Shown: piece after piece, positions 184 to 60,064 of the stretch
Numbering within the stretch: position 1 is the first letter of the stretch
Layout: every line of letters starts with the position of its first letter
DNA from: Paraspadella gotoi
Lineage: Eukaryota; Animalia; Chaetognatha
DNA length: 64,000 nt
Reading direction: 5' to 3'
Assembly: GCA_051294375.1 (NCBI GenBank)
Contig: CM119271.1
Span: 6,003,991-6,067,990 of the forward strand
The notes under the pieces: generated by a model
Seen by the model: the letters and a program-made list of their open reading frames with translations, nothing else
Told to the model about the DNA's origin: nothing
The model's database searches: none
Position numbers and translations under genes: made by a program

Positions 184-290
184 CCAAGCGGCGCAGTTCG
201 TGAAGGCATGTCGGGATCGATAAGAACGATCGTGTAGTAGTGATCGTCTAACATGCCGGGCCATGTCACGGACACGGGCTGGTAGCGAAC
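184..290 (-). CDS. Internal exon of EGF-PEBP gene (PEBP core: VRYQPVSVTWPGMLDDHYYTIVLIDPDMPSRTAPLG); gene continues beyond the left edge
   Basis: cccacag acceptor, GT donor, 107 nt phase 0/2; contains the PEBP signature Y-T-hydrophobic-D-P-D-x-P-S-R and follows a TPTQ exon end as in PEBP1-like genes. Confidence 0.9.
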
Positions 291-730
291 CTGTGGGATT
301 GAGAGGAAGGAAGGAAGGAATTTGAACAGAGTTGAAATCATTAGGATTCTGAAAAATGTGCAAAGTCGATCGATTTGATTCGACGACGAATCGTCGATCT
401 TTAATTAGGAATCGAACCTTCGATCGCATTTAAAAATGTTCAAACCGATTTTCAGAGGCCATGATAAATGTAGAGTTGGAAGACAACTCGGGATTTCGGG
501 TAAATATTCAATTCATTCATTCGCTCGTTCGTTCTTTCCTTTGGTGTAACTTATTTTTGTCACAGTAGGAGTGCTAACAAGAAACGACGAATTTCAAGGT
601 ATTGTAGCCAATCGGAGTGATCATTTGTCACAATCTTCGTTTCAAACCTCATTTGCATATTATAATTATATTATAATTATTTCTAGCTGCTCCATTTAAT
701 TATTAAATTATATTATTCTTTTAAACTAAC

Positions 731-858
731 TTGGGTGGGGGTGTTCTCCTTGCCGGTGTCTTCGTCCAGAGAGAGATAGCCGGTGTAGACGATTCGCATA
801 TTCGCTACTGGGGCTTCGTCAATCAATTCTGTAATCAAGCCGTTTCTGACGAACAACT
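731..858 (-). CDS. Exon of EGF-PEBP gene (PEBP N-terminus: ELFVRNGLITELIDEAPVANMRIVYTGYLSLDEDTGKENTPTQ)
   Basis: cgacag acceptor, gttagt donor, 128 nt phase 1/0; resembles PEBP N-terminal pattern (V/I-D-x-A-P...V-x-Y...G-x-E-x-T-P-T-Q) and joins exon 184-290 in frame. Confidence 0.85.
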
Positions 859-1029
859 CTGTCGCGGTGAAGAAAAATATCTTTAATCAATAAAGTTTTT
901 TAACATTTATCGATGTTAATATCGATAATGTAGTTTTTGTTATTAATAAAAAGTAATAAAATTATCAATGAAGTTTTTTAACATTTAACACTTGTTTGTA
1001 TTCAATTATGTTAATAACGCTTTTTTTAG

Positions 1030-1255
1030 GGTCAAACTTTGTCAATGGGGTAGGTCAAAAGTTTGATTTGGGAACCTTCTCAAATGGACCAAAATTTTCT
1101 AAAATAGCAAGAAGCAATAGTAATTAATTTTTTAATATTTATATATAGATAGGAAATGTCAAATTTTTTTTATTTTTAAAAGCAGATTCAGATAGCTTAT
1201 GAAAAGTTGTCTACACAAAGTATAATTCTTTTTTCAATATTTTGATGATTTTTGT
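1030..1255. repeat. Dispersed repeat, also at ~8480-8700 and ~50400-50660
   Basis: Shared caaacttt..tcaatgggg..ggtca.aagtttgatttgggaaccttc and gcagattcagatagcttat..aaagttgtctacacaaa blocks. Confidence 0.7.
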
Positions 1256-1402
1256 TATTAATAAAAAAAACATTTAAAAACAATGTTTTAAGGGTACGAA
1301 GGCGATTGAGTCAAATATTTAAAATAGTTAGAAATGCATATCTCTTCAACCCAAGTTTAAAGAAATAAAGTTATAATTAAAACTAAAAACAAATTTCCCG
1401 AC

Positions 1403-1637
1403 CTCGTTTCGACGATTGACTGTATTCGCAAAAGAGTCCAGAATATCCTTGTTGGCAGGAGCAGGTGTAGTACGGTCCCATCCAAGGAACGCATATTCCA
1501 CCGTTTCGGCAGAAAGAATTGGAGCAGGCCTTTGACTGCTGGGGGGCAGAAATGTCAGTGAGCGCGGCGGCCGGCGCATCGTCATTTTCCGCGGGAAGTG
1601 ACGAGGCCACGCCCACGAACACCGCCACGAGAATCGC
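1403..1637 (-). CDS. Exon with hydrophobic leader and EGF-like domain (AILVAVFVGVASS...CSNSFCRNGGICVPWMGPYYTCSCQQGYSGLFCE...SSKR)
   Basis: Six-cysteine EGF spacing with CxNGGxC and CxCxxGYxGxxC; tttcag acceptor; phase-1 donor G|gtcggg completes GAG with the AG starting exon 731-858. Confidence 0.85.
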
Positions 1638-1698
1638 CTGAAACCTGACGGGTAAGAGGAGGAAAATGTAATCTAAAAAAATATAATTATATAATAAT

Positions 1699-1790
1699 AT
1701 ACTCTGGGAGTGAATAAACAAGACTGTGAGAGAGTCTTGATTGAAAGCTTGCAGGGACCTGCTATGTCATTATCTTGTAAGAGTGATGGA
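1699..1790. repeat. Dispersed repeat, also at ~9155, ~41429 and ~46256
   Basis: tactctgggagtgaata.ac.agactgtgagagagtct.gattgaaagcttgcag shared; hairpin caagac/gtcttg versus cgagac/gtctcg covaries. Confidence 0.75.
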
Positions 1791-2144
1791 GGCCTTAAAC
1801 CACCAAAGCCTGTCCAAAGTCAGGGGCAAGATAGCTTATTTATTAAATGAATGGATAATTTTTATATTGGTTGTACCAATTTCATATAATAATATAATAT
1901 AATGATGGAGGTCTTAAACCACCAATGACTGTCCAAAGTCTGGGGCAAGATAGCTTATTTATTAAATGAATCGATAATGATTATTTTGGTTGTACCAATT
2001 TCATACTAAAGAAAAAATACTTTAGGCTTGAACAGGTGGAACTGGTCCATTTTCTATGCATTATTGATTATGTCAAATTTTTTATGGGCGATTAGTCAAC
2101 TTAATTTCTCATTCCTAAACTGGAGGCTCGTAAAAGGCAAAAAC

Positions 2145-2195
2145 CTGATTCGATGCTTCTAGCAAAAGAGCGAGAACGATTAATGGCCCGACCAT
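2145..2195 (-). CDS. Candidate first coding exon of EGF-PEBP gene (MVGPLIVLALLLEASNQ)
   Basis: ATG, hydrophobic stretch, CAG|gttttt donor in phase 0 matching the 1637 acceptor; other donors near 2341 and 2429 are alternatives. Confidence 0.3.
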
Positions 2196-5100
2196 GTCTG
2201 TCTGGTGCCAACCGGATCTAACTGGTCAAATTTTGAAGTCGGTCGTGAAAATTCCCGCACCTTTTGTCGATCATGCTGGCGGGGAAGATTTGGCAGAAAA
2301 TGTTGACCGGCAAATCCGATGGGGAATGCTGCTGAATTTACCTTTGTATAGGATTTTCGGTTTTTATTAAATTTTTTCGTTGTATTAAATCCCGCTTGGA
2401 AGAAGAGATCCCCTTCCTGCAGCTCTTACCTTGGATGAGATTTAAAGAAAAAAGTGGAGAACCCTCGGTTTTTCTTCTGAAAAAAAAACTCGCTCTTCTC
2501 ATCTTCCTTACTTTTTCATCTTCTTTATTCAATTTTATGTTTATTTGTCACACGGTGAGTGTGAAGAATGTCTAGGGTAAAAATTTTTTTTCGAAACTAA
2601 ATAGTTGAAGAACTAACTTTGTTAATTTTAGAATACAAAATAAATTATATAATTTGTTGACTGTTCTAATTTTTTATTTTTTATTTGGCTCTTTTTTGTT
2701 TAAAAAAAAAAAATTCTAAAACCCCGCGTGCGCATTGTGTCACTTTTGAGACCCCACACAAACTCTTCAATTTTCAAAAAGGACAACGGAAAACGGGTTT
2801 CTCGTTCAAATTTGTTCTTTGGTTGAGAAAAGCAATGATGCTCCATTGTGAAGTCGCATCTGTCAACACGTGAAAAAAGAAAAAGTGGAAAAATAAATAA
2901 TCGGGGGGGATAACCAAGGTGTGAATGAAAAAAAGAGATTAAGTGAATTAAAAAGAAAATTGATAACGCAGACAATTTCTTTTCCTCTTAACAAAATTTT
3001 TAAAATTCGGCTTGTTTAATGAAAAAATTAAAAAAAGGAAAGATACAAAGAATGAAAGGAAATGGAAAAAGGATCTCTTACATGGTTGCTATGACAAACA
3101 ATTAATGCTTGATTTCCAAAGAATACATGGAATCCATGATGGATCTATTCTAATCATTTACGGCATAAAGAAAGTAGACTTGCCGTGTTGCGCAATTTCT
3201 ACGATAAACTTTCCTATTAAATTGTATATATAAGTATATACATGTAATTTTTTGTTGTTTAAAATTCTAACAACGTTATTTTTTATTTTGTGCCTTGAGT
3301 TATGGCTCTTCGGGTAATTTACTGATTTAGTTCATTTTTATCATATTTTATGCGCGGTATTAAAATGATTTTGAATCGGACTTATAATATGATTAGGAAA
3401 TTATTCTCACAAAAGAATTTGGCCTCGCAATAGAATTTCGAATATCAATGTAACTCGAGGCTAATGCAGAGAAAAAGACGTTTAGACCTTGCCTTTCTTC
3501 TATTCAGATAAACAAGCGACAGTCAATACATTTCTTACATATTTCCTCCACAAGTAGATACATCTTTACTCCTAATTCACGATTTCTGCATCGAATACTT
3601 TGATTTTCCGAAATTAGTAATTTATTATTCATCGAAACTCCTAAAACGCAGTGAAAAAAAAACGTTTCTTCGCTTTCCTCTTGTTTATTTTATTTAATAC
3701 CGTTTACAAACATTTGTCACTCGAGAATTACTTTCCCAAACAGAATGACTAATGTCCATTGCTAAAGATTCTCTGTTAGCAAATATCAATCGTACAATTG
3801 ATCCGCCAGAAAGGAAAAAAAAAACTTTTTCAAGGACGCTTCGGTTGACTCGGCAAACAATTCGCTCTTTCCTCTCTCAGATTCAAAGAAGCGACGAATC
3901 ATTTCCCTGTTCCTCGGAATTCGTTCAAGATGTACACGATTCACTTTCAACCGAAGCTTGAATTAACCGAGGCGTCTCTTCCTTCCTCTCCTCTATTCAC
4001 ATCATAACTTCCACTCTTCATCTTCCCATTTCTCACGTTTTATATTTCCAAACCTTGTCTCCACGCCTTCTCACTTTTCCACTCCTCATCTGCCAACCTT
4101 TTAATTTCCACTCCTTTTCTTTCCTCATTTATATTTCCACTCCTATTTTTTTCCCAGGTATATTTCCAATTCTCATTTACTATTACTAATACTAACTTTT
4201 GTAATTCCAATCTGAGTCTTTCCCCTATCTTTTCACCCTTACAATTCTTTTCCCATATTTTTTAACATCATTACTTCCACTCCTAGTCTTCCCACATTTT
4301 TTATTTCAATTTCTTGTCTTTCCTCATTTATATTAAATTCCACTACTCCGTTTTCTAATCTTTCCGCTACTAATCCTCGCAGTCTTGCCAGTTTTGCTCC
4401 TTTTTTCTCCATCCCTTTCTCGTGTATTTTTGTTTGGGTATCTAAACATCTGTAGACTACATCCATTCATCTCGATTACCGGGTGGAACCTATCGATTTT
4501 CGAGGCGGAAGTCGGGAGAATGAATGGGGTGACGGTGGAGGGGGAACCCAAGGGAAAGAGAAAAGAAATATATGAAGATTGTATTGACTAATAAGTCTAT
4601 AAAAGAGAGAGAGCAAAGAGAGAAAAGAAAAAAGTAAATTATAGAAAAGAAAGAAGTCAAGAACCGAACCGAAAAATAAATTGATTACATCGACTCCCGG
4701 ATGCGAAGCGACATCACGTGAACAGCGATGGAGTGATTAATGCTCGGAATAACACGAATTGACGAGTCGCCTAATCGGTGAACCCGAGAGTGAACTTTTT
4801 TTTCTTTATCTGACGCAACATGTCTTCAATGTTCGCGATGTATGTAGTAAATTCCATCATCTCTAATAATCGTCTCGTCTCTTTTGACCCACTTTTTAAT
4901 CTTCACTTTTTCTTTCCTCAAAATTTTGTTTTTCAAATTAAATTTAATCCCTTTTCACTCGAACAAAGTTGGACGGGATGTGGAGCAGAAAAACACGTCA
5001 TTTTTGGTCGTCGTCGTCGTCGTCGTCATATCGGTTTGTTCGAAGGAGACGAGACACATAAATTTCGACAAATAGTGGGAGACCTTATCGCCTCTTTTCT

Positions 5101-5857
5101 ACTCTTTCTCGTTCTTAATAGTTAATTGGAAGGACGCGCGTTTATCTTAGTGTCCGACGAGGGGGTCCGCCCCCTCCCCCTGACCCCTTCTCCAAAGCAG
5201 CCTCTCCCACAAGGGTCTGAGGTTGTTAGACCGGCGATGACCGGTTTGGACGGGTTTTGACCAGTTGAGACTCTATTGTTCTTTTCTGTCAAATTGACAA
5301 ATACGACGATGGATCTATTAAAAAGTTATACTTGACAAGGTCTACATTATAAAATCCGATGCAGTGCATGTCGAACGCTCACGCGATCACCCGGAAATAC
5401 ACGCGAGAAGAACGTCACTGCGATGCAACACATTGGAATGATCGTTCTTGTTTTTAAAGCAGTAAAAGGGTTAAGATCAAATTAAAATCATATATCAAAT
5501 TCAATTTGCCCTTCGGAAGATAAGACATGCGTTCGTTATTGTTTCAATTAAAGCTGGACCGGTTTAGGACGCGCGAGGATCCATTACGGACGAACTCGCC
5601 GCTTAACTCTTTTAACGGTTAACACCTTGTTTTTCTCAAGAGCCCAAGCTCAAGCTTTTTAATCCTATTCCTCATGCCCCCCCCTTTTTTTTCTACTCTA
5701 CTCCTTCCATCTCTTTGCCTAACCCGTTCTTAATCCTCTTGTCCGATAATTTCTCACAAGTTTCACCATCCGATACTCGAGGAACTTTTAATTCATGGCA
5801 AGGAAATCATTTCGATCGATGGAGGGATCAATTCACTTTTGCGCGCCCCCAGGGGAG

Positions 5858-5962
<105 letters not shown>

Positions 5963-6200
5963 TCTTACACGAATGTAGGGGAAAGGGTTTCAAGGTTTGC
6001 GGCGCCGCCTTGTCGATCTCTGCCACGTGACCGAGTCACGTGACTGTGTCAGGTGATGACGTCACGTGAAATGACTTTTAACATCGAAGATCTTAGTTGG
6101 AATGATCATCCAAGAAAGATTTCTTTCATCGCATGCAGAATCGCAGATATCACGCTATAACGGAACACATCAGGTCCTTTTTGTCAATTAATCATTTTTA

Positions 6201-6258
<58 letters not shown>

Positions 6259-6308
6259 TCAGTAGATAGGCCCCGTCAGAATTAATTTTTACTGTGTATA
6301 AAGCGATT

Positions 6309-7772
<1,464 letters not shown>

Positions 7773-8179
7773 CTGCGCGGGGGGGAGGGACAATTTGATT
7801 AATAGCCTCTTGATTTTAGGACAAATTGGGCGGAGGAACCTATTTTGCCTCTTTTTTTGATCTCGATTTGTCTCGATCATTTGCGATTATTGAGATTAGA
7901 ATAAAAAAATTAAATGTAGAGTTGGAAGACAACTCGGGATTTCGGGTAAATATTCAATTCATTCATTCGCTCGTTCGTTCTTTTCCTTTGGTGTAACTTA
8001 TTTTTGTCACAGTAGGAGTGCTAACAAGAAACGACGAATTTCAAGGTATTGTAGCCAATCGGAGTGGATCATTTTGTCACAATCTTCGTTTCAAACCTCA
8101 TTTGCATATTATAATTATATTATAATTATTTCTAGCTGCTCCATTTAATTATTAAATTATATTATTCTTTTAAACTAAC

Positions 8180-9091
8180 TTGGGTGGGGGTGTTCTCCTT
8201 GCCGGTGTCTTCGTCCAGAGAGAGATAGCCGCGTGTAAGACGATTCGCATATTCCTACCTGGGGCTTCGTCAATCAATTCTGTAATCAAGCCGTTTCTGA
8301 CGAACAACTCTGTCGCGGTGAAGAAAAATATCTTTAATTCATAAAGTTTTTTAACATTTATCGATGTTAATATCGATAATGTAGTTTTTGTTATTAATAA
8401 AAAGTAATAAAATTATCAATGAAGTTTTTTAACATTTTAACACTTGTTTGTATTCATTATGTTAATAACGCTTTTTTTAGGGTCAAACTTTGTCAATGGG
8501 GTAGGTCAAAGTTGATTTGGGAACCTTCTCAAATGGACCAAAATTTTCTAAAATAGCAAGAAGCAATAGTAATTATTTTTTTAATATTTATATATAGATA
8601 GGAAATGTCAAATTTTTTTATTTTTAAAAGCAGGATTCAGATAGCTATGAAAAGTTGTCTACACAAAGTATAATTCTTTTTTCATATTTTGATGATTTTT
8701 GTTATTAATAAAAAAAACATTTAAAAACAATGTTTTAAGGGTACGAAGGCGATTGAGTCAAATATTTAAAAATAGTTAGAAATGCATATCTCTTCAACCC
8801 AAGTTTAAAGAAATAAAGTTATAAATTAAAACTAAAAACAAATTTCCCGACCTCGTTTCGACGATTGACTGTATTCGCAAAAGAGTCCAGAATATCCTTG
8901 TTGGCAGGAGCAGGTGTAGTACGGTCCCATCCAGAGGAACGCATATTCCACCGTTTCGGCAGAAAGAATTGGAGGCAGGCCTTTGAACGTGCTGGGGGGC
9001 AGAATGTCAGTGAGCTCGGCGGGCCGCGCATCTTCATTTTCCGCGGGAAGTGACGAGGCCACGCCCACGAACACGCGCCAACGAGAATCGC
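8180..9091 (-). pseudogene. Frameshifted duplicate of the EGF and first PEBP exons, lacking the downstream PEBP exon
   Basis: Homologous to 731-1637 with several indels; may be sequencing error rather than a true pseudogene. Confidence 0.6.
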
Positions 9092-12000
9092 CTGAAACGC
9101 ATGACGGGTAAGAGGAGGAAAAATGTAATCTAAAAAATATAATTATATATAATATACTCTGGGAGTGAATAAACAAGACTGTGAGAGAGTCTTGATTGAA
9201 AAGCTTGCAGGGACCTGCTATGTCATTATCTTGTAAGAGTGATGGAGGCCTTAAAGCACCAAAGCCTGTCCAAAGTCAGGGGCAAGATGCTTATTTATTA
9301 AATGAATGGATAATTTTTGTATTGGTTGTACCAATTTCATATAAATAATATAATATAATGATGGAGGTCTTAAGCCACCAATGACTGTCCAAAGTCTGGG
9401 GCAAGATAGCTTTATGTTATTAAAATGAATCGATAATGATTATTTGGTTGTACCAATTTCATACTAAAGAAAAATACTTTAGGCTTGAACAGGTGGAACT
9501 GGTCCATTTTCTATGCATTATTGTTATTTCAAATTTTTTATGGGCGATTATCACTTAATTTCTCATTCCTAACTGGAGGCTCGTAAAAGGCAAAACCTGG
9601 ATATCGATGCTTCTAGCAAATAGAGACGAGAACGATTAATGGCCAACGAACCATGACTGACTGATATTGCTGGTGCTCAACCGTGATCTAACTGGTCAAA
9701 TTTTGAAGTCGGTGGCGTGAAAATCCCCGCAGACCTGTTTGTCGAATTCATGCATGGCTGGGGAAGATTTGGCAGAGAATGTAGTACCGGCAAATCCGAT
9801 GGGGATGCTTGCTGGAATTTACCTTTGTATAGGATTTTCGGTTTTTAAATTAAAGTTTTTTCGTTGTATTAAATCCTGCGCTTGACAGAAGAGATCCCCT
9901 TCCTGCAGTCTCCTTACACTATGGATGAGGATTTAAAGAAAAAAGTGGAGAACCCTCTGGTTTTTCTTCTGAAAAAAAACTCGCTCTTCTCATCTTCCTT
10001 ACTTTGTTCATCTTCTTATTGCAATTTTTTTATGTTTATTTTGTCACACGGACGTGAGTGTGAAGAATAAGTCTAGGGTAAAAATTTTTTTTTCGAAACT
10101 AAATAGTTGAAGAACTAACTTTGGTATAATCCTTTATGAGATACAACAGATAAATTATATAATTTGTTGACTGTTCTAATTTTTATTTTGTATTTGGCTC
10201 TTTTTGTTTAAAAAAAAAATTCTAAACCCCGCGTGGCGGATGCATTGTGTCACTTTTGAGACCCCCACACAACTCTTCAATTTTCAAAAAACATACGGAA
10301 AAGCCGGGTTTCATTCGTTCAAGGGTATGTGTATTTCTGTGGTGGTTGAGAAAAGCAATGATGCTCCATTGTGAAGTCGCATGCTTGTCAACACGTGAAA
10401 AAGAAAAAGTGAAAAAAATAAATAATCGGGGGGATAACCAAGGTGTGAATGAAAAAAGAGATTAAGTGAATTAAAAAGATACAATTGATAACGCAGACAA
10501 TGGTTCTTTTCCTCTTAACACAGAAATTTTTAGAAATTCGGATCTTGTTTAATGAAAAATTAAAAAAGGAATAGATACAAGAATGAATGGAAATGCGAAT
10601 ACAAGTGTTGATTACTCAGTGGTTGCTAATGACAAACAATTAATGCTGATTTCCAAAGAATACATGGAATCCTATGGATGGAATCTATTCTAATCATTGT
10701 TACGGCATAAAGTAAAGCTAGACTTGCCGTGTTGTGCGCAATTATCTTACGATAAATTTCCTATTAAATTGTATATATAAAAGTATACTAACATATTTAT
10801 GTAATTTTTTTGTTGTTTTAAGAAAGTATCTAACAACGTTATTTTTATGTTTGTGCCATTGAGTTATGGCTCTTCGGTCGTGATTTACTGACTTTAGTTC
10901 ATTTTTATCATTAGTTTTATGCGCGCGTATTGTTACGGAAAAGTGAGATTTTGAATCGGACTTAATAATATGATATTAAGGAAATTAGTTCTCACAAGAA
11001 GAATTTGGCCTCGCAATAGAATTTCGAATATCAATGTACTCGAGCTAATAGCAGAGAAAAAACGTTTTAGACCTTGCTTTCTTCTATTCAGGAATAAACA
11101 AGCAGACAGTCCAATACATTTCTTACATATTTCCTCCACAAGTAATACAGTCTTTACTCCTAATTCACGATTTCTGCATCGAATACTTTGATTTTCCGAA
11201 TTAGTAATTTATGTATTCATCGAAACTCCTAAAACGCAGTGGAAAAAACGTTTCTTTCGCTTTCCTCTTGTTTATTTTATTTAATACCGTTTACAACATT
11301 TGTCACTCGAGAATTACTTTCCCAAACAGAATGACTAATGTCCATTGCTAAAGATTCTCTGTTAGCAAATATAATCGTACAATTGATCCGCCAGAAAGGA
11401 AAAAAAACTTTTTCAAAGGACGCTTCGGTTGACTCGGCAAACGCAATTCGCTCTTCCTCTCCTCAGATTCAAAGAAGCGACGATCGATTTCCCTGTTCCT
11501 CGGAAATTCGTTCAGATGTACACGATTCACTTTCAATCCGAAGCTTGAATGTAACCGAGGCGTCTCTTCTTCCATCTCCTCCTATTCACATCATAACTTC
11601 CACTCTTCATCTTCCCATTTCTCTTTACGTTTTATATTCCAACCTTGTTCCACAGCCTTCCTCACTTTTCCACTCCTCATCTGCCAACCTTTTAATTTCC
11701 ACTCCTTTTCTTCCTCATTTATATTTCACTCCTATTTTTTTCTCCAAGGTATATTTCCAATTCTCATTTACTATTACTAATATATACTTTTGTAATTCCA
11801 ATCTGAGTCTTTCCACCTATCTTTTCACCCTGTACAATTCTTTTCCCATAATTTTTTTAAACATCATTACTTCCATCCTAGTCTTCCACATTTTTTATTT
11901 CAATTTCTTGATCTTTCCTCACTTTATCTTAAATTCCACTACTCCGTTTCTAATCTTTCCGCTACTAATCCTCGCAGTCCTTGCCAGTTTTGCTTCCTTT

Positions 12001-13500
12001 TTTCTCCATCCTTCTCGTGTATTTTTGTTTTGGGGTATCTAAAACTCTGTAGACTACATCCAATTCCATCTCGATTACCGGGTGGAACCTAAATCGATTT
12101 TCGAGAGCGGAAGTCGGGAGAATGAATGGGGTGACGGTGGAGGGGGAACGAACCAAGGAAAGAAGAAAAGAAAATGATAGTGAAGATTGTATTGACTAAT
12201 AAGGGTCATAGAAATGAGAGAGAGCAAAGAGAGAAAAGAAAAAGTAAATTATAGAATAAGAAAGAAGTCCAAGAAGCCGAAGCCGAAAATTAAATTGATT
12301 ACATCGACTCCCGGATGCGAAGCGACATCACGTGAACAGCGATGGAGAGTGATTAATGCTCGGAAACACGAATTGAGAGTCGCCTAATCGGTGAATCCGA
12401 GAGTGAACTTTTTTTCTTTTATCTGACGCAACATGTCGTTCAAATGTTCGCGATGTATGTAGTAAATTCCATCATCTCTATAATCGTCTCGTCTCTTTTG
12501 ACTCACTTTTAATCTTCACTTTTTCTTCCTCAAAATTTTGTTTTTCAAAATAAATTTAATATGCCCTTTTACTCGAACAAAGTTGGACGTGGATGTGGAG
12601 CGCAGAAAAACACGTCATTTTTGGTCGTCGTCGTCGTCGTCGTCATATCGAGGTTTGTTCGAAGGAGACGAGACACATAAATTTCGACAAATGATGGGAG
12701 ACCGACTGATATCGCCTCTTTTCTACTCTTTCTCGTTCTAATTAGTTAATTGAAGGACGCCGCGGTTTATCTTAGTGTCCGACAAGGGGTCCGCCCCCTC
12801 ACCCTGACCCCTTCTCCAAGCAGCCTCTCCCAGCAAGGTCTGAGGTTGTTAGATCGGCGTATGACCGGTTTGGACGGGTTTGGACGCAGTTGAGACTTCT
12901 ATGTTCTTTTTGTCAAATTGACAAATACGACGATGGATCTATTAAAAGTTATACTCTGGACAAGGTCTACATTAGTAAAATCCGATGCAGTGCATGTGCC
13001 GAACGCTCACGCGAATGCACGCCGGAAATACACGCGAGAAGAACGTCACTGCGATGCAACACATTGGAATGATCGTTCTTGTGTTTTAAAGGCAGTAAAA
13101 GGGTTAAGCATCAAATTAAAATCATTATCAAATTCAATTGCCTTCGGAAGATAAGACGAATGCGTCTTCGTATTTGTTTCATTAAAGCTGGACCGGTTTC
13201 TAGCGCGCGAGGATCCATTACGGACGAACTCGCCGCTTAACTCTTTAACGGTTAACACTTGTTTTTCTCAGAGCCAAGCTCAGCTTTTTGATCCTATTCC
13301 CTCATGCCCCCCCCTTTTTTTTTTCTACCTCTACTCCTTCCATCTCTTTGCTAACCCGTTCTTAATCTCTTTGGTCCCGACTAATTGTCTCACAAGTTAT
13401 CAGCCATCCGATACTCGAGGAACTTTTAAGTTCATGCAAGTGAAATATTTGCGATCGAGATGGAGCGGATCAGATTCCTTTTCGCGCCTCCCCAGGGGAG

Positions 13501-13578
<78 letters not shown>

Positions 13579-13850
13579 AGAGAGAGGGAGCAGCCCTTCT
13601 ATAACACCGAAATGATAGGGGAAAGGTTTCAAGGTTTGCGCGGCGGCCGCCTTGTCGATCTCTGCACGTGACCGACGTCAACGTGACTGTGTCAGGTGAT
13701 GGCGTCACGTGAAATGACTTTATTAAAATCATGAAGATCTTAGTTGGAATGATCATCCAAGAAAGATTTCTTTCAATCGCATGCAGAAGTCGCAGATATC
13801 ACGCTATAACGGAACACATCCAGGTCCTTTTTGTCAATTAATCATTTTTA

Positions 13851-13905
<55 letters not shown>

Positions 13906-14439
13906 TTTCTAGTAGATAGGCCCCGTCAGAATTAATTTTTACTGTGTATAAAGCGATTTCAGCAACTCATCTAATAGCCCTGGAACGGGTCCTGGCCTGA
14001 AGTTTTCCACGCCCTCATGGGAGTCTACGGCGTTTTCACGCTTCCTGCAGGGGAGGTACACTTAGAGATCGAGAAAATGGTCAAATGGACAAGTACTGAT
14101 CGTATCACTCAATGAACCACCGGGTCACGAGAGAAGGTGTCATGCTTATAGGCGTGGTGAACTTTTAGCAATGCCCGACTACAATACTAATAAGTAAACA
14201 GTAAGTAATCATAGTTAAACAATGGAATAATGGCTTATACTAAGCTTTTATATTATACATAACTTAACCTTTCAAAACTAACCCAACGATGTTTTTTGAG
14301 GCTGTTTTTAAGATGAAACTCAATCGACCCCAGACGATCGAAGGGAGACGACGATATCTCGGCTCCGTCGCCACTCCACCCAAAGCTAACACACGTCTCC
14401 TTTTCTCTAACCCTATTCTTCGATAGGAAGATAAAACAA

Positions 14440-14546
<107 letters not shown>

Positions 14547-14982
14547 CCCCCCGAAATCTAGAAAAGAAAACGTACGAAAAGACCGGGGGTTTTTCCCGGT
14601 CAATCCAAATGTGAAAAGAAAAAAGTGAAACGAAGAACAAACTGTATAATATACGTATTATAAACTATTCATAAAGGAGTAGGGCGTTAGTATATTTAAT
14701 ATTTATATTCATATGATTAACGAAGCATTGCCAAAAATCACCTGGCCAAGCCGTTCTTTACTTAATATCTTGCATTAGTGTTAAATGTTTTAGATACTTA
14801 TTACTAATTGAAATTTAGAAAAAAATAAAAATAGCCGCTAGGTTATTATATATGAAAACGCTTATCCATAGATACCAACGTATCGTAAAAAAACAACAAT
14901 AATAACCATAAAATGGTTTTTTTGAAGGGCTTGGGTATTATTTTTACAACCGTAACCGAGAGAGAGAGTAAGAGAGAGAGAA

Positions 14983-15074
<92 letters not shown>

Positions 15075-15978
15075 TAGGTGTAAGCGGAAGCGACAGAGAT
15101 AGCGAGTTTCAAAGGTTAACCCTCATAAAATATTTCGTGATCCGAAAATTTGTTGATCTTCGGGGCAAAAGTTTAAGAGGATAAGGATCGAATGGATTAT
15201 CACAAGTAATGTACGTCCTTTATAATTTGGACATTTTGAAAATACCAAGAGACATTGTGAAAATTCTAACAAACAAAACATCATTTGAGATCATTTTTAA
15301 AAAAATATCATGATTCTCAAAGACATGAATGAAATTATACAACTTTACTGACAGATTCAAGAGACATGGCATAGATTTCTGATGAAGATTCACGATTTGA
15401 AGCAAAAGAATTAAAAAGCTCGCGGGGGGGAGGGACAATTTGATTAATAGCCTCTTGATTTTAGGACAAATTGGGCGGAGGAACCTATTTTGCCTCTTTT
15501 TTTGATCTCGATTTGTCTCGATCATTTGCGATTATTGAGATTAGAAAAAAAAAAAAAATATTTGATGTAAAATAGTATTCTGCCTCACTAATTTTTTTTA
15601 TCAATAAATCAAAGAGGCAAGAGTAAAAAGGTCAAAGTCTTTGACAAGAATGAAAAAAAATGAGGGAATAATGAGTAAACANNNNNNNNNNNNNNNNNNN
15701 NNNNNNTGTGTAAGAGATACTTGTTTATTGTTTCACGTAGGAGGTATCAGAAATGTAAAATTAAGAGTTGATAGTGGTGTAGAGCAAAATAGGTTGTGGT
15801 AGATAGAAGACAAGAAAAAATCCATTAATTGAGAAAAGAAAAACAGTAGAAAAGACCAAAGAAGCTAAACCTGGGAAAACTTGATCGAAGATGACAGTCA
15901 AGATCGCTTCTCTTCTCCCTCTGGCACCAATTAACTCTTATTGTGTCGTCAAAATCGTCCTCCTTTTCTGGTTGGCGT

Positions 15979-18733: not shown

Positions 18734-19556
18734 TCATTGCAACGCCGCTTCTTTTTGAGATGCGTCGCCGATTCTCCTCGACGAAGCATTGGAAAGGTTC
18801 GTTAACGAAGAAGGGACGACCGTTCGCGTCGACGCAGACGTTCCCTCATCTCCGCCGAATCCTTCCTGGCTGCAGTAGGTCATGTAGAGAAATCCGTCGT
18901 GGTCCTTTTCCTGATCGTAGATTTCGGCCAGAGTCAAGGAGAGAGTCGCCATCGAGCGTCGGTTGACGATGAAGAAAAACGCCTGTGTCTGCGAGACGGA
19001 CATCCGGCTCCGGATGATGGTGATGAATTGAGACATGGAGAGCTCCTGGGGGACGAGGAACTTGGTCTTGTCGAGTAGAGGCAGCTCCTTTTCTCGTCGG
19101 TATCGCTCGACGATGACGGGGATCTTCGTCGGGAACTTGGATCGAATGCCGTCAGTTTCTTCGCGCCGAGTCGCAAAGGACTTGCGCTGCTTGAAGGGCA
19201 GGAGGTTCTCGTGGAGGAAGCTCGGGGACTTGATGAGGGGCATCATGAAGGTCGGCATGGTGGAGGGTGGATGGCTGGGGGTGTCGGAGGAAGAGTAGGA
19301 AGAGGATAGGCTGGGGAAATAATTGAAAACTATTCATAATCTTAATTCGATGATCGAAGTTCAAATCCAATATTTCGCCCTTTATTAAAAAATATAAAAC
19401 TGCGGTATAATTGAAATTTATGTAAATTGATTAATAAAATCTAATTAAAAATTTATATAAAAAGGTAATTTATGAAACTTTCCCAATTCTACAACCTAAG
19501 AATAAAAAAAAGGAATAAAATGAAAGCTTTGCACGAATTGGTACTTACCTTTTCAT
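18734..19556 (-). CDS. MAP1LC3C: ATG8-family protein, LC3C type; main exon 18734-19310 plus probable micro first exon 19549-19556 (ATGAAAAG|gtaagt)
   Basis: PFKQRKS...KFPTKIPVIVERY...LDKTKFLVPQELSMSQF...DGFLYMTYCSQEGFG matches LC3C; upstream exon splices in frame adding MKSLSSSYSSSDTPSHPPST. Confidence 0.93.
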
Positions 19557-23807: not shown

Positions 23808-26800
23808 TTAAGCCGTCTCCAAGACGGTTGACTGCTTATGGATTGACTTGTCCTCTCCATCAGGCGACACCAAGGTGGTGGTGATATCCGCACCGGATCC
23901 CCAGCTCGAGCTGCCGCGCCAAACGACCTGGAAGGGCGGGTCGTCGACTGCGTCGGCCACGGCCGCCCAGACCTTGATCGTGCCACCGCTGGGCATGACG
24001 AAGCCCACGGGGAACCTGTAGACGAGTGCGTCGTTGTTGTCGACTTTGCGGCGGAGGGAGAATCCGTCGAGACTCTGGTCCTTGCCCTTCTTGTTCTCCA
24101 GCATGACGAAGGTGCCGTCGGGGCAGCACTCCGTGATGGCTACGGGACCCTTGGAGGATCTCTGGAAGGTCTTCTTGGAAGCCATCTCGCTCTTGGTGAC
24201 CATGACCTGTTGAGAGGCTCCGCCGGCCGAGGCCATGGCGGAGCTGGATGAGCTCTGGACCAACATGCCGCCGCCGCCGCCGCCGCCCGCCGCGGAGAGG
24301 CCGGCGCCCGCCGTCGTGTCCCTCAGGCGAGATTCTTCTCCCATCAAGAGGCGCCTGTAGGTGGCGATCTCGGCGTCAAGAGCCAACTTGCTGTCCATCA
24401 GCTCCTTCAGTTCGAGGATCTGAGCCGCTAATTGAGCCCGGAGCCGTTCGATCTCTGCCGCCTGTTGGGGATTGTGACCGATACTGGTATTTTAGTATAC
24501 ACATTAATTTATAATTGTTGATTCTGAGGTTTCTTATATATTTGTTGCCAATTTTAATTGTTATCTCATTTCTTATAGTTGACAAATATTGCTGTAGGTT
24601 CACATAAATTTTGTCGTTAAAAATGAATGTATGATTTTCCTAAAGTAATACTAAATATTTTCTTATATCCAAACACTTCTTGATTCTTCCAAATTTTGTT
24701 TAAATTCGGAATTTTATAATTTATGGTAAAAGAATAGCAATTAAAAAATGAATACAATCAAGTATTATGGCTCAAACTCGTGTACCTGATCGTCCGAGGC
24801 AGCCTCCTGATTCTTGTTGAGGAATTCCAACTCGGCCTCCAACTGCGCCACCCTCTCCAGCAACTCGGCGTTGTTGGCTCGAAGTCGCGAGATCTCCGCC
24901 TGCAGCTCCGAATATTTGGCGCGCGCGCGTTTGATCTCCTCTTTCGACTCGACGAGCTCTTGACCGGAGCGTTGAGACGTCGTCAGCATTTCGTTGAATT
25001 TCGCCTTTGAAGAGGAAAAGAGAGGAACAGGGTGAGAGAAAGAGCAGAGATACCTGGAAAAGGGAATGATAAAATGATGGGAGAGGTGCGGTTCTTAAGG
25101 GAGCTGGGATTTTTATCGTAGCTGACTGTTTGGGGACATCTTATACACTGTACAGTGTACACAAAGTAATTATTATTTTATTTTCATTTTTCTCAATTTA
25201 TCACCTAAATTTAAACGTTCAAGTTGTTTCTTATTGCTTTCATTCGTTGTCATTGGTTTTTTTTGTCTTCGCTTTCCAACATTGTTATTGCAATAAGGCA
25301 TATGCCTTTAGTTATGCATTTCCAAGCTCATTATTTGTGGACTGCAAGTCTACAGATATCTGACGCCCTTACGATTCTCCATTCCTCTCACCTTGTACCA
25401 CGAGTCCGTGTCGGCGCCCTTCTGCGACTCCAAGATAGCGTCGTATTCGGCGCGAATGTCCCTCAACGCCAAGGCCAACTCGTTGGAGAACATCGTCCTC
25501 CAGTCTTCCGAATCGAAGTTCATGTCCATCAGCTGGAAAAAGGAAGCTCGAAATTCAGCAACAAATCGGACAAAAAATCCAAACACGCTCATTCTTCGAT
25601 CTACTTTTCCGAAAGCGCCCCAATTCAGCCAAAATTTTTAATTAGGGGGTTTAAGGTTTAGTATTAGAAGATAAGGATTAGAATTAATGATTAGGTTTTG
25701 ATATTAAAGATTAAGTTAGCGTTAAAAATGAGTTTAAACATATTATTAAAAAATATTAGGGTGAAGAGACAGTAATTATTGTTATGTGTTAGTGATAGAA
25801 CCGTTCAATATAAGCAGTCCCTGAGCTTTGGATCAGGCTGTAACACCATGTTACAGGCGGGTTAAGCGCCCCGTCCCTCTTAACTGCCAGACGACCATCG
25901 GGCTAGAACCCCGGACCTTGGGGTTGGGAGGCGAATGACTTGCCTCCGGCACCAATGGCCGCTGATGAACAGTTGGTGGATTTTAGTTCACCATACATCC
26001 CCCCCCCGTAGGGAGAAGTCTGTTACATCTCTTCAGTGAATTGTTGTTGTTGGTGGAAAGTTCGTCACCAAGTTGAGGCATATCGCCTGATGTGTTGTGG
26101 GCGGAAAGTGCATCGCCAGGTTAAGGCATGTCGCCTGAAAGTGTTGTTGTTGCTGTTGTGTTCGGAAGTCGGGCTTACCAATGAAGAAACAGTAATTATT
26201 GTTATGTGTTAGCGATAGAACCGTTCAATATAAGCAGTCTCTGAGCTTCGGATCAGGCTGTAACACCATGTTACAGGCGGGTTAAGCGCCCCGTCCCTCT
26301 TAACTGCCAGACGACCATCGGGCTAGAACCCCGGACCTTGGGGTTGGGAGGCGAATGACTTGCCTCCGGCACCAATGGCCGCTGATGAACGGTTGGTGGA
26401 TTTTAGTCCACCATAAGGGTTAATTTTTAGATTTAAAATTAGGTTCAGGTATTACGAACAGAAATGAGCGCTTTCGGAAAATAGAGCCCATTCTCCCTCA
26501 CCTGACGAATCTTCTCCTCGTACATGTTCCTGAGAAAGTTAATCTCATCGTCTTTGGTCTGCACCATGGATTCGAGCTCGATGCGCGCCACGATCTCGGC
26601 GTCGGCCGCAGTCTTCGAGTCGCGGAGGTCGCGTTGGCTGCGCGCCAAGTCTCCCTTTGCGCGCGCGCACTCTCGCTCCAACGCGTCCACGGTTTTGGTG
26701 AGGTATTCGATCTGGGCATCGCGTTCCGAGATTCCCTTTTCTAAGGCAGGGAGGCGTTCCTGTGGTTTGGTTGTTTTTCGGTCTTTGTTTATTTTTAAAA

Positions 26801-28070
26801 GAAAAATTCCTTCTCAATAATTTGAATATTTATTCATTGACAAATAAAACATTTCACCGCGTGTCTATTCATTTATTATTCATCGATTGATATTTATTAT
26901 TCATTGCCTTTCCTTTTCAGCTCTCAGCTATTTGTCTTTGATCTCACTCTTTCTCTATATCTTTCCTTTTTTCTCGGGTCTTTTCTGTCAATTTAAAAGA
27001 TTTTTGTAATTTTGTTCACATTTTCCACTCACATGAACTTTGAATTGTTACATGTTTTTAAGAGTGGCCCCAGCATTGCGCCCACCTAAAATTGCACGCA
27101 CAGTATTCCGCGCACATGGGATTTCCGCAATGCGGCAATCCTATGAGGGCGCAACACAAATCGGAAATCGTTTTTATTACCTCATTGAAATCACTTTCAG
27201 ATCTCTCTTCGATTTAATTTAACGTCACTCTTCCTTCACCTTGGTGATGGCGTGCTCTCTGGCTTCCTCTGCGTACTTGGCCCGGACATCCGCCAACTCC
27301 TCCTCCAGCCTGGCCAACCTCAACTCCACCTCAGCTTTGGCTTTGGTTGTCTCGTCGATAGTCGATCGCGCCGCCGTCAGCTCAGATTCGTACATTTCCT
27401 TCAGCGTCACCTCGAGCTGCTCGAACTTAACCTAAAGTGAGAAGAAGGGTGAGGCTAGAATTGCGACATTATTGTTTTTTTGTTTTGTTTTTTTCCTTTT
27501 GAAACTGTCACTCTGTTTACTTTTTTTTGGTCTTTTAAATAGATGACGATTTTTTTATTAAATTTTATTGAATCCCCACGAGGCAATCGTTTTCGATTTC
27601 AATACACCTTTTTTTGGACATCATTTTTTGCCCAATCTATTAGCCAAAACATAATTAGTCTAATCGACTATCAACTAAATCTTAAAGCGTCATCCTCGTG
27701 TCAAAACCTTAAGCGTATCGATGATGGATTGAAGCCTCTTGTTGTCCGCCTCCAAGAAGCGAACTCTCTCGATGTAGGAGGCGAATCGGTCGTTGAGTTC
27801 CTGCAAGTCGCGCTTCTCCTTTTCGCGTTGGGCGATGACGGCCGAAGGGTTTGACGCCACCTCGCGAACCGCGGCTGGGTACAATAATTTAAAAAACCAT
27901 ACGTGAATAAAATTATATATTCTATCCATAATGATATTAAAAAAAAGTAATGGAATATTGCGGAAAGCAGCAAAGACGTGAAGACAATTCCACGTTTTCA
28001 ACGCTACTAATGCGAAGTTTGTATGATTTGGCGGTAATTTTGACCAATTTAATGTCTTTTGTTTTTGAGT

Positions 28071-28161
<91 letters not shown>

Positions 28162-28431
28162 ACTAAGTCATTAATTCCTCACCCACCCTTCCCCTTAACA
28201 CTCACCCGTGATGCCACCACCGCTTCCGCCCAGCGAAGCCAGCGCCATCCGCAGCGACATTCCGCCGCCGCCGCCGCCTCCGCCGCCGCCCGAGCGGGAG
28301 ATGCTGGACTGCGTGATGGACATGCCGCCGCCGCCCATGCCGCCCATGCCTCCTTTGCGGATGGAGATATCCCGCGGGCGGATGGAGGATTTGGTGGAGG
28401 ACTCGTACGAGTAAGATGTCGACATCGACAT
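23808..28431 (-). CDS. Cytoplasmic intermediate filament protein with lamin-tail domain, 7 exons (28206-28431, 27708-27874, 27240-27431, 26502-26759, 25392-25532, 24786-25004, 23808-24461), 618 aa
   Basis: Coil 1a LQELNDRFASYIERVRFLE, coil 2 end KLALDAEIATYRRLLMGEESR, Ig-like tail (FVMLEN...YRFP...IKVW...WGSG...LVSPDGE); all junctions GT-AG and in phase; no CaaX or basic NLS so not a lamin. Confidence 0.95.
25814..25887 (-). ncRNA. Twister ribozyme fold, type P5, in 3' LTR
   Basis: Same as 26234-26307 but loop UCCAAAGC gives one T1 mismatch and P4 is CCUGA/UCAGG. Confidence 0.6.
26234..26307 (-). ncRNA. Twister ribozyme fold, type P5, in 5' LTR
   Basis: GCAGU UAAG AGG GA CGG GGCGCU UAA CCC GC C[UGUAACA-UGG-UGUUACA]G C CUGA UCCGAAGC UCAG AG ACUGC; T1 CGG/CCG intact, P2 weak; predicted cut between 26284 and 26283. 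Confidence 0.7.
26311..26382 (-). promoter_or_regulatory. tRNA-derived (Gly-like) segment with Pol III A and B boxes inside the LTR (also 25891-25962)
   Basis: GCGGCCAT/ATGGTCGT acceptor-like stem, TGGTGCCGGAGG A box, TTCGCCTCCCA, AGGTC variable loop, GGTTCTAGCCC B box; anticodon stem does not pair so not a functional tRNA. Confidence 0.65.
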
Positions 28432-29092: not shown

Positions 29093-29123
<31 letters not shown>

Positions 29124-31338
29124 TTGGGAGAGATTAAATTGGTCACGGTAAACATGGCTGGATTGGTTGGGTTAAAAAAAAAATAGATGTAGAAATAAAA
29201 AAACGTGAGTCGTAGTTTTTCAGAGTAATCATTGAAGAAAGGACCTTAGCTTATATTTGAATTGCTTTCATCCTTTGCTTGCCGTAAAAAAAAATTAGGA
29301 ATGTTATTCTTAAAGTTTTATTTCTATTAATGTAAAATAAATAAAATAAAATAAAATCAATAAATAAAATAAATAAAACGGATTCTATTTTAAATCTGAG
29401 GTGTAATCTCTCTCTGTTTTTCTAACACTCTCTTTCTCTCTCTCTCTCTTTGACTGCCTGGTTGACCCAGACGAAACTATGAGGGTTCGTCGTCAACATT
29501 AATTAAAATAATCCGGCGCCGTTGTTGTTGCTGTTGTCGTTGTTGTTTTCTCGTCCTCGTCGTTTATCAAAAAAATTCGTTGATCTTCGCCGTCGAGTCA
29601 TCGTCGATCGTTAAAACTGAAAAGACGACAGATTTTAGTTTTTTTGTTCTTCATTTTTTAAATCCTTTCTTATTCATCTCTCCCTCTCTCTCTCTCTCTC
29701 TCCCCCTCTCTTCCTCTCTCCCTTCATCTCTTCATAGTGCCGTATTTCTTTAAAGAACGTTTTTATCATTTATCTTTAGACTTTACTTGACGTGTCTTTA
29801 ATTTTCTCTCTCTCAAAAAAAAAAATCCTTAAACCAAACATTCTATACATACATTTCTTTCTCCTTTCTTTTTAAATCCAGCCTCCTCCTTTAAACGTGA
29901 AAAAACGTCCTCTCCATCGAAGGGATGGCATCACCCTCAGAAAAATGTCGCAAATTGGATGGCAAATTGGATGGCATCACTCTCAGAAAAATGTCACAAA
30001 TTAAAACGAGTTTACTGATTCTAACATCTCTGTGTCTTTTACTTCTTTTTTTAATTTTTTAAGTCTTTTACAGTATAAATCTAAGTTTTGAAGAGACAGT
30101 AATTATTGTTATATGTTAGTGACAGTCCCTGAGCTTCGGATCAGCCTGTAACACCGTGTTACAGGCCTGTTAGGCGCCCCGTCCCTCTTAACTGCGGGCT
30201 AGAACCCTGGACCTTTGTGTTGTGTTGACGAATGATTTGCCTCCGGCACCAATGGCCACTGATGAACGGTTAGTGGATTTTAGTCCACCAGTTTCTTGAA
30301 ATTCTGCATGATGCATTTTACAACAAAATTCTTTCAAGAGTTTTTTTATTTTTTCTTTTTGTTGCAAAAAATAAAACAAAAAAGAAAATGAACTGAACTT
30401 CGTCTCTTTAATAACTGCTCACAATGTATGGTTTTCCAAGGTTATATTTTCTTAGTCAGTTAAAAGGTTTTCCAAAATATTATTTAAAAAAAATGAAACA
30501 AACCAGAAACTCAGTCTTAACTTTTTTTTTTCACTGTAGAACAAAGAATTTCATTGTGAATCGTCATTCGAAAAATTCGTGAGTCTAAATTGAAAAGGAA
30601 GTGAAATCCGGAGGATGAGAAGAAAACGCCCGAATCTTCTTTGTACAGGCGATTCAAAAAAAAAGAGTGAAAGGATACATAAAATGCATATTGCATACTG
30701 CAAATAATACACAGATAATGCCAATATGGCGCCCGAGAAAGCGGTGGATCTCACTTGTTGACGTTACAGATCAATGATATTAACTGTCGCGGTTTAACAC
30801 GCACTGTCACGCTTCGCCAACAAAGCCGGAGACCTCCGGGAATAAACCCGGAACTCTCAAATAGTGGGTTAGACTACCGGTTTGTGGCGATTCCGTGGCC
30901 AATGGAAAAAGTCATTTTCCCTCCCATGACTGTTGAGCATGTCAAGGTGGCCAGCTCGCCGTGATTATAAACTGTTATTTAACTATGTAAAAAATGCATC
31001 ATGTTGATTTCGTCGATTGCTCTCTGAATCGCCGGATCGGTCTACAGTCGGCATGCTGACTTCCTTCAGATGCCCTTGCCGCTCGGAGGTCAGACCGACG
31101 CTTTCGAAAAGGGCGTCGCGAAAATTGAGCTGTTGTATGTCATAAAAAAATTGACTTGTATGTAAGAATATTGAATTTTTTAAAAAAACTTTTATTTGTC
31201 TTTTTTTTAACGTTTTCGACTTTGAAGGAATAAAAATGTTTGGTTCGGTTTTTTGATCGCGCGCGATCGCTCGCATTGAGAACGATGAGCGAAGTGAGAG
31301 AAGAATACGAGAGAGAGATAGACAAGAGAGAGATTTAA

Positions 31339-31371
<33 letters not shown>

Positions 31372-33095: not shown

Positions 33096-33165
<70 letters not shown>

Positions 33166-35140: not shown

Positions 35141-35155
<15 letters not shown>

Positions 35156-60010: not shown

Positions 60011-60064
<54 letters not shown>

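What the first reader, a model, noticed from the sequence alone, without database searches (positions are those of the whole stretch)
184..1637. Secreted-type EGF-PEBP fusion protein with a dibasic site between the domains
Seen: a hydrophobic leader plus EGF exon ends in phase 1 and completes a Glu codon with the next exon, giving ...CEYSQSSKR-ELFVRNG...TPTQ-VRYQP...DPDMPSR without a break. Known: PEBP/RKIP proteins are mostly single-domain; secreted ones exist (PEBP4, Ov-16, and Toxocara TES-26 with ShK modules). Inference: EGF+PEBP is an architecture I do not recognise, and the KR at the junction could let a convertase release a free EGF peptide and a PEBP.
Basis: partly seen in the sequence, partly recalled or inferred. 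Interest (0 to 1): 0.7.

Follow-up and report, generated by a model that had tools for sequence, protein, structure and literature searches.

The report
Secreted EGF-PEBP fusion protein family
A spliced animal gene joins a predicted secretion signal, one EGF module and a phosphatidylethanolamine-binding (PEBP) domain; the same fusion recurs in 13 unnamed related protein clusters that lack the proposed cutting site, so it likely works as one intact secreted protein rather than as a precursor of two.

Summary
The fusion is real; the convertase idea is not supported. One contig of run X1 covers the EGF exon and two PEBP exons and skips exactly the GT-AG introns 859-1402 and 291-730. It also moves the acceptor to 1644 and adds a first exon with the ATG at 2274. 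Relatives with leader + the same EGF + PEBP form 13 clusters at 90% identity. They lie in a PEBP subfamily (44 clusters seen, support 100/100) with no NCBI or UniRef entry among 43 rows listed. EGF occurs in 16 of 44 subfamily clusters and 0 of 196 other PEBPs. The junction KR is in 0 of 13 relatives and maps to the first turn of PEBP helix A in models of two relatives. The EGF fails three ErbB-ligand criteria. The PEBP pocket keeps D70/H86/H118/R119/Y120 but has E83Q, W84V, Y181W and a 2-residue insertion. Best reading: an intact secreted two-domain binder with a retuned anion pocket, like Toxocara TES-26 with EGF in place of ShK. Ligand and host phylum were not determined. New variant of a known kind.

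The parts
2261..2274 (-). Coding part of first exon; ATG at 2274; ends in phase 2. 5' UTR runs upstream (to about 2383 if the contig's 121-nt loose end is colinear)
   Evidence: Loose end behind 1646 matches 2263-2292; donor GTGCGG and no other ATG in 2275-2501
1645..2260 (-). Intron 1 (616 nt, GT-AG); holds a 103-nt direct repeat at 1784-1886 and 1903-2005
1403..1644 (-). Exon 2: rest of the predicted signal peptide (to about 1599), Ala/Pro/acidic spacer, EGF module, short linker; ends in phase 1
   Evidence: Covered by the contig; best 9-residue hydropathy 3.26 at residue 9; GC 0.56 against 0.24-0.36 in introns; SignalP not run
1428..1526 (-). EGF module, six Cys spaced 4-5-9-1-8, Phe before Cys6, no intron inside
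1404..1409 (-). Lys-Arg codons; not conserved in relatives; align with the first turn of PEBP helix A
859..1402 (-). Intron 2 (544 nt, GT-AG, phase 1) between EGF and PEBP; holds a repeated element at about 1027-1249
   Evidence: Joint 858/1403 and very high depth at 1030-1279; second copy at 50396-50658
731..858 (-). Exon 3: N-terminal part of the PEBP domain, ending at the TPTQ motif (phase 0)
   Evidence: 13-24 identities over 37-42 aligned residues with 13 relatives
291..730 (-). Intron 3 (440 nt, GT-AG)
   Evidence: Joint 287/728, cut +3
184..290 (-). Exon 4: PEBP strand and DPDMP motif (human D70-P74); ends in phase 2; later exons lie outside the window
   Evidence: the continuation was not found in the window
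7911..15554 (.). Second, indel-ridden copy of 465-7909 with frameshifted exons 1-3 and no exon 4; likely an assembly artefact
   Evidence: 92.7% identity, 137 substitutions against 433 gap bases, mostly 1-nt and insertion-biased

Best explanation
The gene encodes a spliced leader + EGF + PEBP protein of about 284 residues that is likely secreted and likely stays uncut, with the EGF predicted to act as a docking module and the altered PEBP pocket predicted to bind an anionic ligand outside the cell. Shown: the splicing, the domain order, the family, the non-conserved KR and the pocket substitutions. Inferred: secretion (hydrophobic leader, no later membrane segment); no cleavage; origin by exon shuffling at the phase-1 intron; EGF docking through its conserved hydrophobic C3-C4 hairpin onto a surface, matrix protein or its own PEBP; and a lipid head group or a phosphorylated or sulphated group as ligand. 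Odds: one gene 0.97, secreted 0.9, uncut 0.8, docking plus anion-pocket binding about 0.5 overall.
For: Spliced contig. 13 clusters with leader + same-type EGF + PEBP; PF01161 in all 13, PF00008 above cut-off in 11, just under in P0194 and not hit in P0199. The EGF is as conserved as the PEBP core: 20-25 identities of 37-39 in 12 relatives, 16 of 38 in P0033, against 20-25 of 35 for exon 4. The C3-C4 loop has Pro followed by hydrophobic or aromatic residues in 13 of 14. Linkers are 12-18 residues with no KR/RR, and two carry 100- and 232-residue inserts at this point. No 19-residue window after residue 45 exceeds hydropathy 1.32. The P0002 model matches Tm16 and human PEBP at TM 0.9 of the target. 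Of 35 subfamily domains, D70 and H86 are kept in 34 and GxHRY in 35; position 83 is Q in 34, 84 is V in 35, 181 is W in 32 of 32 readable, and D70-H86 is 18 residues apart in 34, against 16 in 33 of 34 other PEBPs. The window gene shows the same spacing and QVLHW. Precedent: TES-26 is a secreted PE-binding PEBP with two six-Cys ShK modules (PMC3611597 passages); ShK, WAP, SVWC and PAN fusions are among the hits.
Against: No ligand, partner or localisation was tested. 28 of 44 subfamily clusters lack EGF and many lack a leader, so the EGF is not needed for the subfamily's core job. RK or KK pairs occur in 4 of 13 linkers, at differing places. The first turn of a helix can fray, and the window's own protein was not folded. 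The EGF part of the models is only moderately confident (pLDDT 56-77), so its orientation is unknown. The C-terminal 120 or so residues, with GxHRY and position 181, lie outside the window and are read from relatives.
Confidence: 0.5

Rival explanations
1. Intact secreted protease inhibitor: the PEBP domain blocks a serine protease or carboxypeptidase, and the EGF adds an exosite contact.
For: Serine protease inhibition is a listed PEBP function (PMC5573103 passages); the yeast carboxypeptidase Y inhibitor 1wpx_B is a structural hit; other animals fuse PEBP to WAP, TIL and thyroglobulin modules (P0059, P0064).
Against: No inhibitor-type module was found in this subfamily. The yeast inhibitor uses its free N-terminus (recalled), which here is occupied by the EGF. 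Leaderless tandem-PEBP paralogues share the same pocket.
Confidence: 0.2
2. The EGF is a passenger or spacer acquired by exon shuffling; all function lies in the PEBP domain.
For: 28 of 44 subfamily clusters lack EGF; others carry F5/8C-like domains, unrelated EGFs, a different Cys-rich module or a second PEBP.
Against: The EGF is conserved as strongly as the PEBP core, beyond its cysteines (mean score 131-187 within the family against 65-76 for 243 unrelated EGFs).
Confidence: 0.14
3. One reading: a convertase cuts at KR and frees an EGF peptide and a PEBP.
For: KR lies at the domain boundary in a protein with a leader. [quoted passage not shown] 4 of 13 relatives have RK or KK somewhere in the linker.
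Against: KR/RR in 0 of 13 clusters and 0 of 54 sequences; chance about 10%; no furin motif. The pair aligns with T75-S76 of helix 74-81 (P0002) and S80-G81 of helix 80-86 (P0192). It could still be a species-specific site.
Confidence: 0.1
4. The EGF is a receptor ligand (ErbB or Notch type) and the PEBP a carrier or lipid anchor.
For: EGF fold in a leader-bearing protein; best sequence hits are Delta-like and Notch repeats.
Against: Phe for Arg41 in 14 of 14, no intron between Cys4 and Cys5, no membrane segment. O-fucose motif in 1 of 14 and O-glucose motif in 0 of 14 (motifs recalled). The Notch-type hits score by many weak repeats.
Confidence: 0.05
5. Artefact: two separate genes, or a retrocopy or chimeric contig.
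For: One contig from one run whose RNA status is a guess; the assembly is noisy nearby.
Against: Joints fall exactly on GT-AG; 13 separate clusters have the same fusion with the same EGF type.
Confidence: 0.01

Closest known systems
Toxocara canis TES-26 / Tc-PEB-1
   Same: Secreted animal PEBP with an N-terminal six-cysteine module (PMC3611597 passages); a 262-aa ShK + PEBP protein is among the hits (P0099).
   Different: Two ShK modules there, one EGF here. TES-26 is shown to bind PE; binding is untested here.
Trichuris Tm16 (PDB 5TVD) and Ov-16-like nematode PEBPs
   Same: Best sequence and structure match of relative P0002: E 1.9e-33, TM 0.91 of the target, 35% identity.
   Different: Single domain; canonical REWHHW and Tyr181 against QVLHW and Trp; no 2-residue insertion; shorter external loop.
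Human PEBP1 / RKIP
   Same: Fold (TM 0.88-0.90); D70, D72, P74, H86, G110, H118, R119, Y120 kept.
   Different: RKIP is cytosolic and single-domain (recalled). E83 and Y181, whose Ala mutants sharply lower C-Raf binding (PMC8194344 passages citing Wu 2014), are Q and W here; W84 is V.
Other module + PEBP fusions (WAP, SVWC, PAN, thyroglobulin/TIL/WAP)
   Same: Extracellular Cys-rich module in front of a PEBP (P0059, P0064, P0040, P0175, P0165).
   Different: Outside this subfamily by motif and, for P0059 and P0175, in the tree; none carries an EGF.
ErbB ligands (EGF, TGF-alpha, spitz, vein)
   Same: Six-Cys EGF fold; weak hits to 1egf and 1gk5.
   Different: No Arg41, no C4-C5 intron, no transmembrane precursor.

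Membership tests
PEBP (PF01161) | Pfam PBP above gathering score | tested here: met
   Met in full-length relatives, 51-60 bits against 24. The window's single exons give no Pfam hit, but exon 4 hits PEBP1 at E 1.4e-5.
PEBP (PF01161) | DPDxP motif and pocket His86 | tested here: met
   DPDMP in exon 4; His in the contig's continuation; 34 of 35 subfamily domains keep both D70 and H86.
PEBP (PF01161) | GxHRY motif | tested here: inconclusive
   Outside the window for this gene; present in 35 of 35 subfamily domains read (the read-out kept only domains with this motif).
PEBP (PF01161) | PEBP fold | tested here: met
   Model of relative P0002 (pLDDT 82.9) matches 5tvd and 1beh, E about 1e-18, rmsd 2.1-2.2.
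PEBP (PF01161) | Binds phosphatidylethanolamine or small anions | not testable with these tools
   Needs a binding assay.
RKIP / PEBP1 (Raf inhibitor) | E83, W84, Y181 at the pocket | tested here: not met
   Q 34/35, V 35/35, W 32/32.
RKIP / PEBP1 (Raf inhibitor) | Cytosolic single domain without leader | tested here: not met
   Hydrophobic leader and EGF.
EGF-like domain (PF00008) | Six Cys with EGF spacing, Pfam hit | tested here: met
   Spacing 4-5-9-1-8; 21.4 bits against 21.5 in the window; above cut-off in 11 of 13 relatives.
ErbB ligand | Arg before Cys6 (Arg41) | tested here: not met
   Phe in 14 of 14; criterion from PMC1618406.
ErbB ligand | Splice site between Cys4 and Cys5 | tested here: not met
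   EGF lies in one exon. Some fly ligands also lack it.
ErbB ligand | EGF next to a transmembrane segment | tested here: not met
   No hydrophobic 19-mer after the leader in 13 full-length relatives.
Notch-type / calcium-binding EGF | Acidic Ca-binding residues before Cys1; O-fucose and O-glucose motifs (recalled) | tested here: not met
   QSKA-type residues before Cys1; O-fucose 1 of 14, O-glucose 0 of 14; no EGF_CA hit.
Convertase-processed precursor | Conserved KR/RR in an exposed linker | tested here: not met
   0 of 13 clusters; aligns with a helix start.
Convertase-processed precursor | Cleavage products seen | not testable with these tools
   Needs peptidomics or an in vitro digest.

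The most novel reading that the evidence does not exclude
One under-sampled invertebrate lineage has turned PEBP into a family of modular extracellular recognition or signalling proteins: a fixed new pocket (Q83/V84/W181, +2 insertion) binds a ligand unknown for PEBPs, and EGF modules were bolted on up to three separate times (the common QSKAC type, the P0212 type, and the repeats behind F5/8C-like domains in P0210/P0211) to aim it at cell surfaces. That would make it a cell-to-cell PEBP signal in an animal.
Probability: 0.15. Interest if true: 0.75.

Novelty: new variant of a known kind. Interest (0 to 1): 0.45.

Why it matters
What secreted PEBPs do outside cells is poorly known. This family offers a natural series on one fixed, altered pocket: leaderless tandem forms, leader-only forms, EGF forms and F5/8C-EGF forms. 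They can be compared directly for ligand and localisation. The EGF + PEBP architecture was in none of the named PEBPs or papers searched, and it recurs with unrelated EGF types, which points to repeated selection for this pairing. It is a new architecture of two well-known domains, not a new mechanism, and the released-peptide idea did not hold.

Tried and rejected
No whole genome is held, so exons beyond the window start could not be mapped; a search of the window for the next exon found 0 matches. Two other candidate first exons (ATG 2050, ATG 2195) were tried with acceptors 1637 and 1644 and dropped when the contig pointed to 2261/1644. Exon 3 as query found 4 candidates and no hit at E 10 and only chance ubiquitin-like hits in PDB. 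ESM Atlas: generic EGF clusters under 0.9 for exon 2, no usable hit for P0002; neither shows novelty. No RNA holder on record was listed; X1 is a guessed RNA run. The complex prediction of EGF on its own PEBP was not available, and the wide VIA fold search had not finished when last asked. EGF as the ancestral state of the subfamily: suggested by the quick tree (P0033 basal, SH-aLRT 93) but unresolved in the careful tree. One clade of 12 QSKAC-type EGF-PEBPs was neither rejected nor shown (p-AU 0.067), so repeated loss is not established. Five outgroup rows gave no domain and were left out; one search used 36 domains without the partial window row. P0212 was dropped from the linker count (anchor failed); by eye it has KK but no KR/RR. 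[quoted passage not shown] The guess stays untested. Earlier findings of the scan: none.

Full report
Gene structure. Run X1, the only holder listed (0.24 of sampled words), has one 1086-nt contig at depth 105.9 that lies on 184-287, 728-858 and 1403-1646, with joints that skip 544 and 440 bases between GT and AG. Non-repeat intron bins have no depth. The contig differs at 2 of 479 aligned bases; the one listed (779) is the third base of a Gly codon. Its loose end behind 1646 matches 2263-2292, so the acceptor is 1644 and a first exon ends at 2261 with the ATG at 2274. Its other loose end continues the frame into the PEBP His-Trp motif; 486 nt lie beyond 184, enough for the 120 or so remaining codons of relatives, which gives about 284 residues (inference). 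The run is only guessed to be RNA, and this is one contig.

Domains. The N-terminus has a basic start and a hydrophobic core (9-mer hydropathy 3.26); a cut after residue 20 is my reading, SignalP was not run. An Ala/Pro/acidic spacer leads to an EGF with Cys spacing 4-5-9-1-8 (PF00008 21.4 bits, cut-off 21.5). Exon 4 matches PEBP1 at E 1.4e-5. The intron between EGF and PEBP is phase 1, the phase typical of shuffled extracellular modules (recalled).

The fusion is a family. Exon 4 found 3 hits among 3 candidates, all with PF00008 + PF01161. A profile of these against 1.84 billion representatives (best 150 of 2906 listed) and a second search (best 120 of 1176 listed) gave 258 representatives. 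By motif 240 are PEBPs: 44 form a subfamily and 196 do not (three further PEBPs escaped the motif, none with EGF). EGF is in 16 of the 44 and 0 of the 196 (one pattern hit, P0064, is TIL by Pfam). The subfamily is one side of a 100/100 branch, and the partial window row falls inside it in the quick tree. None of its 43 rows has an NCBI or UniRef source; they come from JGI, Logan and merc contigs of 0.9-2.1 kb. Of 147 cluster members read, 2 carry a name, both generic. Thirteen clusters have leader + one EGF of the window's type + PEBP (P0033 is the most distant; P0195 is cut at its start). P0212 and P0210/P0211 carry EGFs no closer to this type than 243 unrelated EGFs, so EGF was probably recruited more than once. 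Other members have F5/8C-like domains (below Pfam cut-off), a leader only, or two PEBPs without a leader. The order of gains and losses is unresolved. Only the top of each list was seen, so EGF-PEBP fusions among distant PEBPs are not excluded.

The dibasic site. KR/RR occurs between Cys6 and the PEBP start in 0 of 13 clusters and 0 of 54 sequences (55 held, one dropped; members of a cluster are near-copies). RK or KK occurs in 4 of 13 at differing positions. From the family's own PEBP composition (14 of 2097 pairs) a 15-pair stretch holds a KR/RR about 10% of the time. Linkers vary from 12 to 18 residues, and two hold inserts of 100 and 232 residues. Counting back without gaps from the conserved Gly-Leu, the window's Lys-Arg aligns with residues 75-76 of helix 74-81 in the P0002 model and 80-81 of helix 80-86 in the P0192 model. 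A helix start can fray, and the window protein itself was not folded, so a species-specific cut is not excluded (0.1).

The EGF. It has Phe before Cys6 in 14 of 14, lies in one exon and has no membrane segment behind it, so it fails the three ErbB-ligand marks in PMC1618406 (passages). It lacks Ca-binding and, but for P0033, O-glycan motifs (motifs recalled). It is as conserved as the PEBP core and keeps a Pro-hydrophobic hairpin between Cys3 and Cys4 in 13 of 14, which suggests a binding surface (inference). Whether it packs on its own PEBP could not be tested.

The PEBP pocket. The P0002 model has the PEBP fold (pLDDT 82.9; TM 0.9 to Tm16 and human PEBP). Against human numbering, 35 subfamily domains keep D70 and H86 (34), G110 and H118-R119-Y120, but have Q83 (34), V84 (35), W181 (32 of 32 readable) and two extra residues between D70 and H86 (34); 34 other PEBPs mostly have E83 (28), W84 (19) and Y181 (18 of 30). 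E83 and Y181 matter for Raf binding by RKIP (PMC8194344 passages). The anion site thus looks intact with a changed rim. Leaderless paralogues share it, so the change is not tied to secretion.

Mechanism. Most likely (0.5) the protein is secreted whole, the EGF docks it on a surface or partner, and the pocket binds an anionic head group or modified residue. Rivals: protease inhibitor (0.2), passenger EGF (0.14), convertase precursor (0.1), receptor ligand (0.05), artefact (0.01). The gene structure, family, KR test and pocket residues are shown; secretion, integrity, docking and ligand are inferred.

Known relatives and novelty. It works most like Toxocara TES-26, a secreted PE-binding PEBP with two ShK modules (PMC3611597 passages), and module + PEBP fusions recur in other animals. 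It is a PEBP by Pfam, motif and fold, but not an RKIP and not an ErbB ligand. Paper searches for the architecture found 0 papers; one search listed 25 of 136 papers, none on it by title or abstract start. Searches were seen as listings. PMC5573103 and PMC12460157 (with 3 supplementary files) were read as passages. Subscription papers and InterPro were not searched. The host is an animal; a neighbouring intermediate filament gene with a lamin tail domain and no CaaX end fits a non-arthropod invertebrate (distribution recalled). The phylum was not determined.

Verdict. Observation confirmed, with a corrected 5' end. Architecture real, conserved and apparently undescribed; convertase release not supported. 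New variant of a known kind; interest 0.45.

Noticed in passing
window 465-7909 against 7911-15554; also 37875-42567 against 42711-47373, and 29093-32020 against 32467-35142 (inverted): Long duplicates at 88-95% identity with more gap bases than substitutions, near short N runs: likely raw long-read gap fills, so frameshifts and copy numbers in this window are unreliable.
   Followed up: partly
window 23808-28178, minus strand: Intermediate filament gene with a lamin tail domain (Pfam Filament and LTD), ending without a CaaX box and with no clear basic nuclear signal before the tail: likely a cytoplasmic IF. A 234-nt stretch is duplicated at 25762-25995 and 26182-26415.
   Followed up: partly
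window 18734-19333, minus strand: ATG8/LC3-family domain in a single open frame (PF02991 E 1.9e-36), apparently without introns and with a C-terminal extension after the Gly.
   Followed up: no
window 57499-62584, minus strand: Exons of a dynein heavy chain (PF12777 stalk at 62075-62584; the 57502-58014 frame looks dynein-like by eye but gave no Pfam hit).
   Followed up: no
window 1027-1249: Repeated element in intron 2: contig depth in the thousands in X1, another copy at 50396-50658, flanked by 19-20-nt AT-rich direct and inverted repeats; possibly a MITE.
   Followed up: no
P0001 residues about 90-170; P0200 residues about 110-320: Unannotated inserts between EGF and PEBP: a 4-Cys segment of about 90 residues, and a two-repeat segment of about 100 residues per repeat; no Pfam hit.
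   Followed up: no
P0035 and P0212: About 40-residue Asp-rich insert with DxDxDG-like repeats in the external loop of the PEBP domain, possibly calcium-binding.
   Followed up: no
P0033 residues 32-37: A furin-type RNRR lies before the EGF, not after it: a propeptide cut that would leave EGF and PEBP joined.
   Followed up: no
P0030, P0179-P0191: Tandem double-PEBP members of the subfamily, mostly leaderless, one cluster with 52 members.
   Followed up: partly
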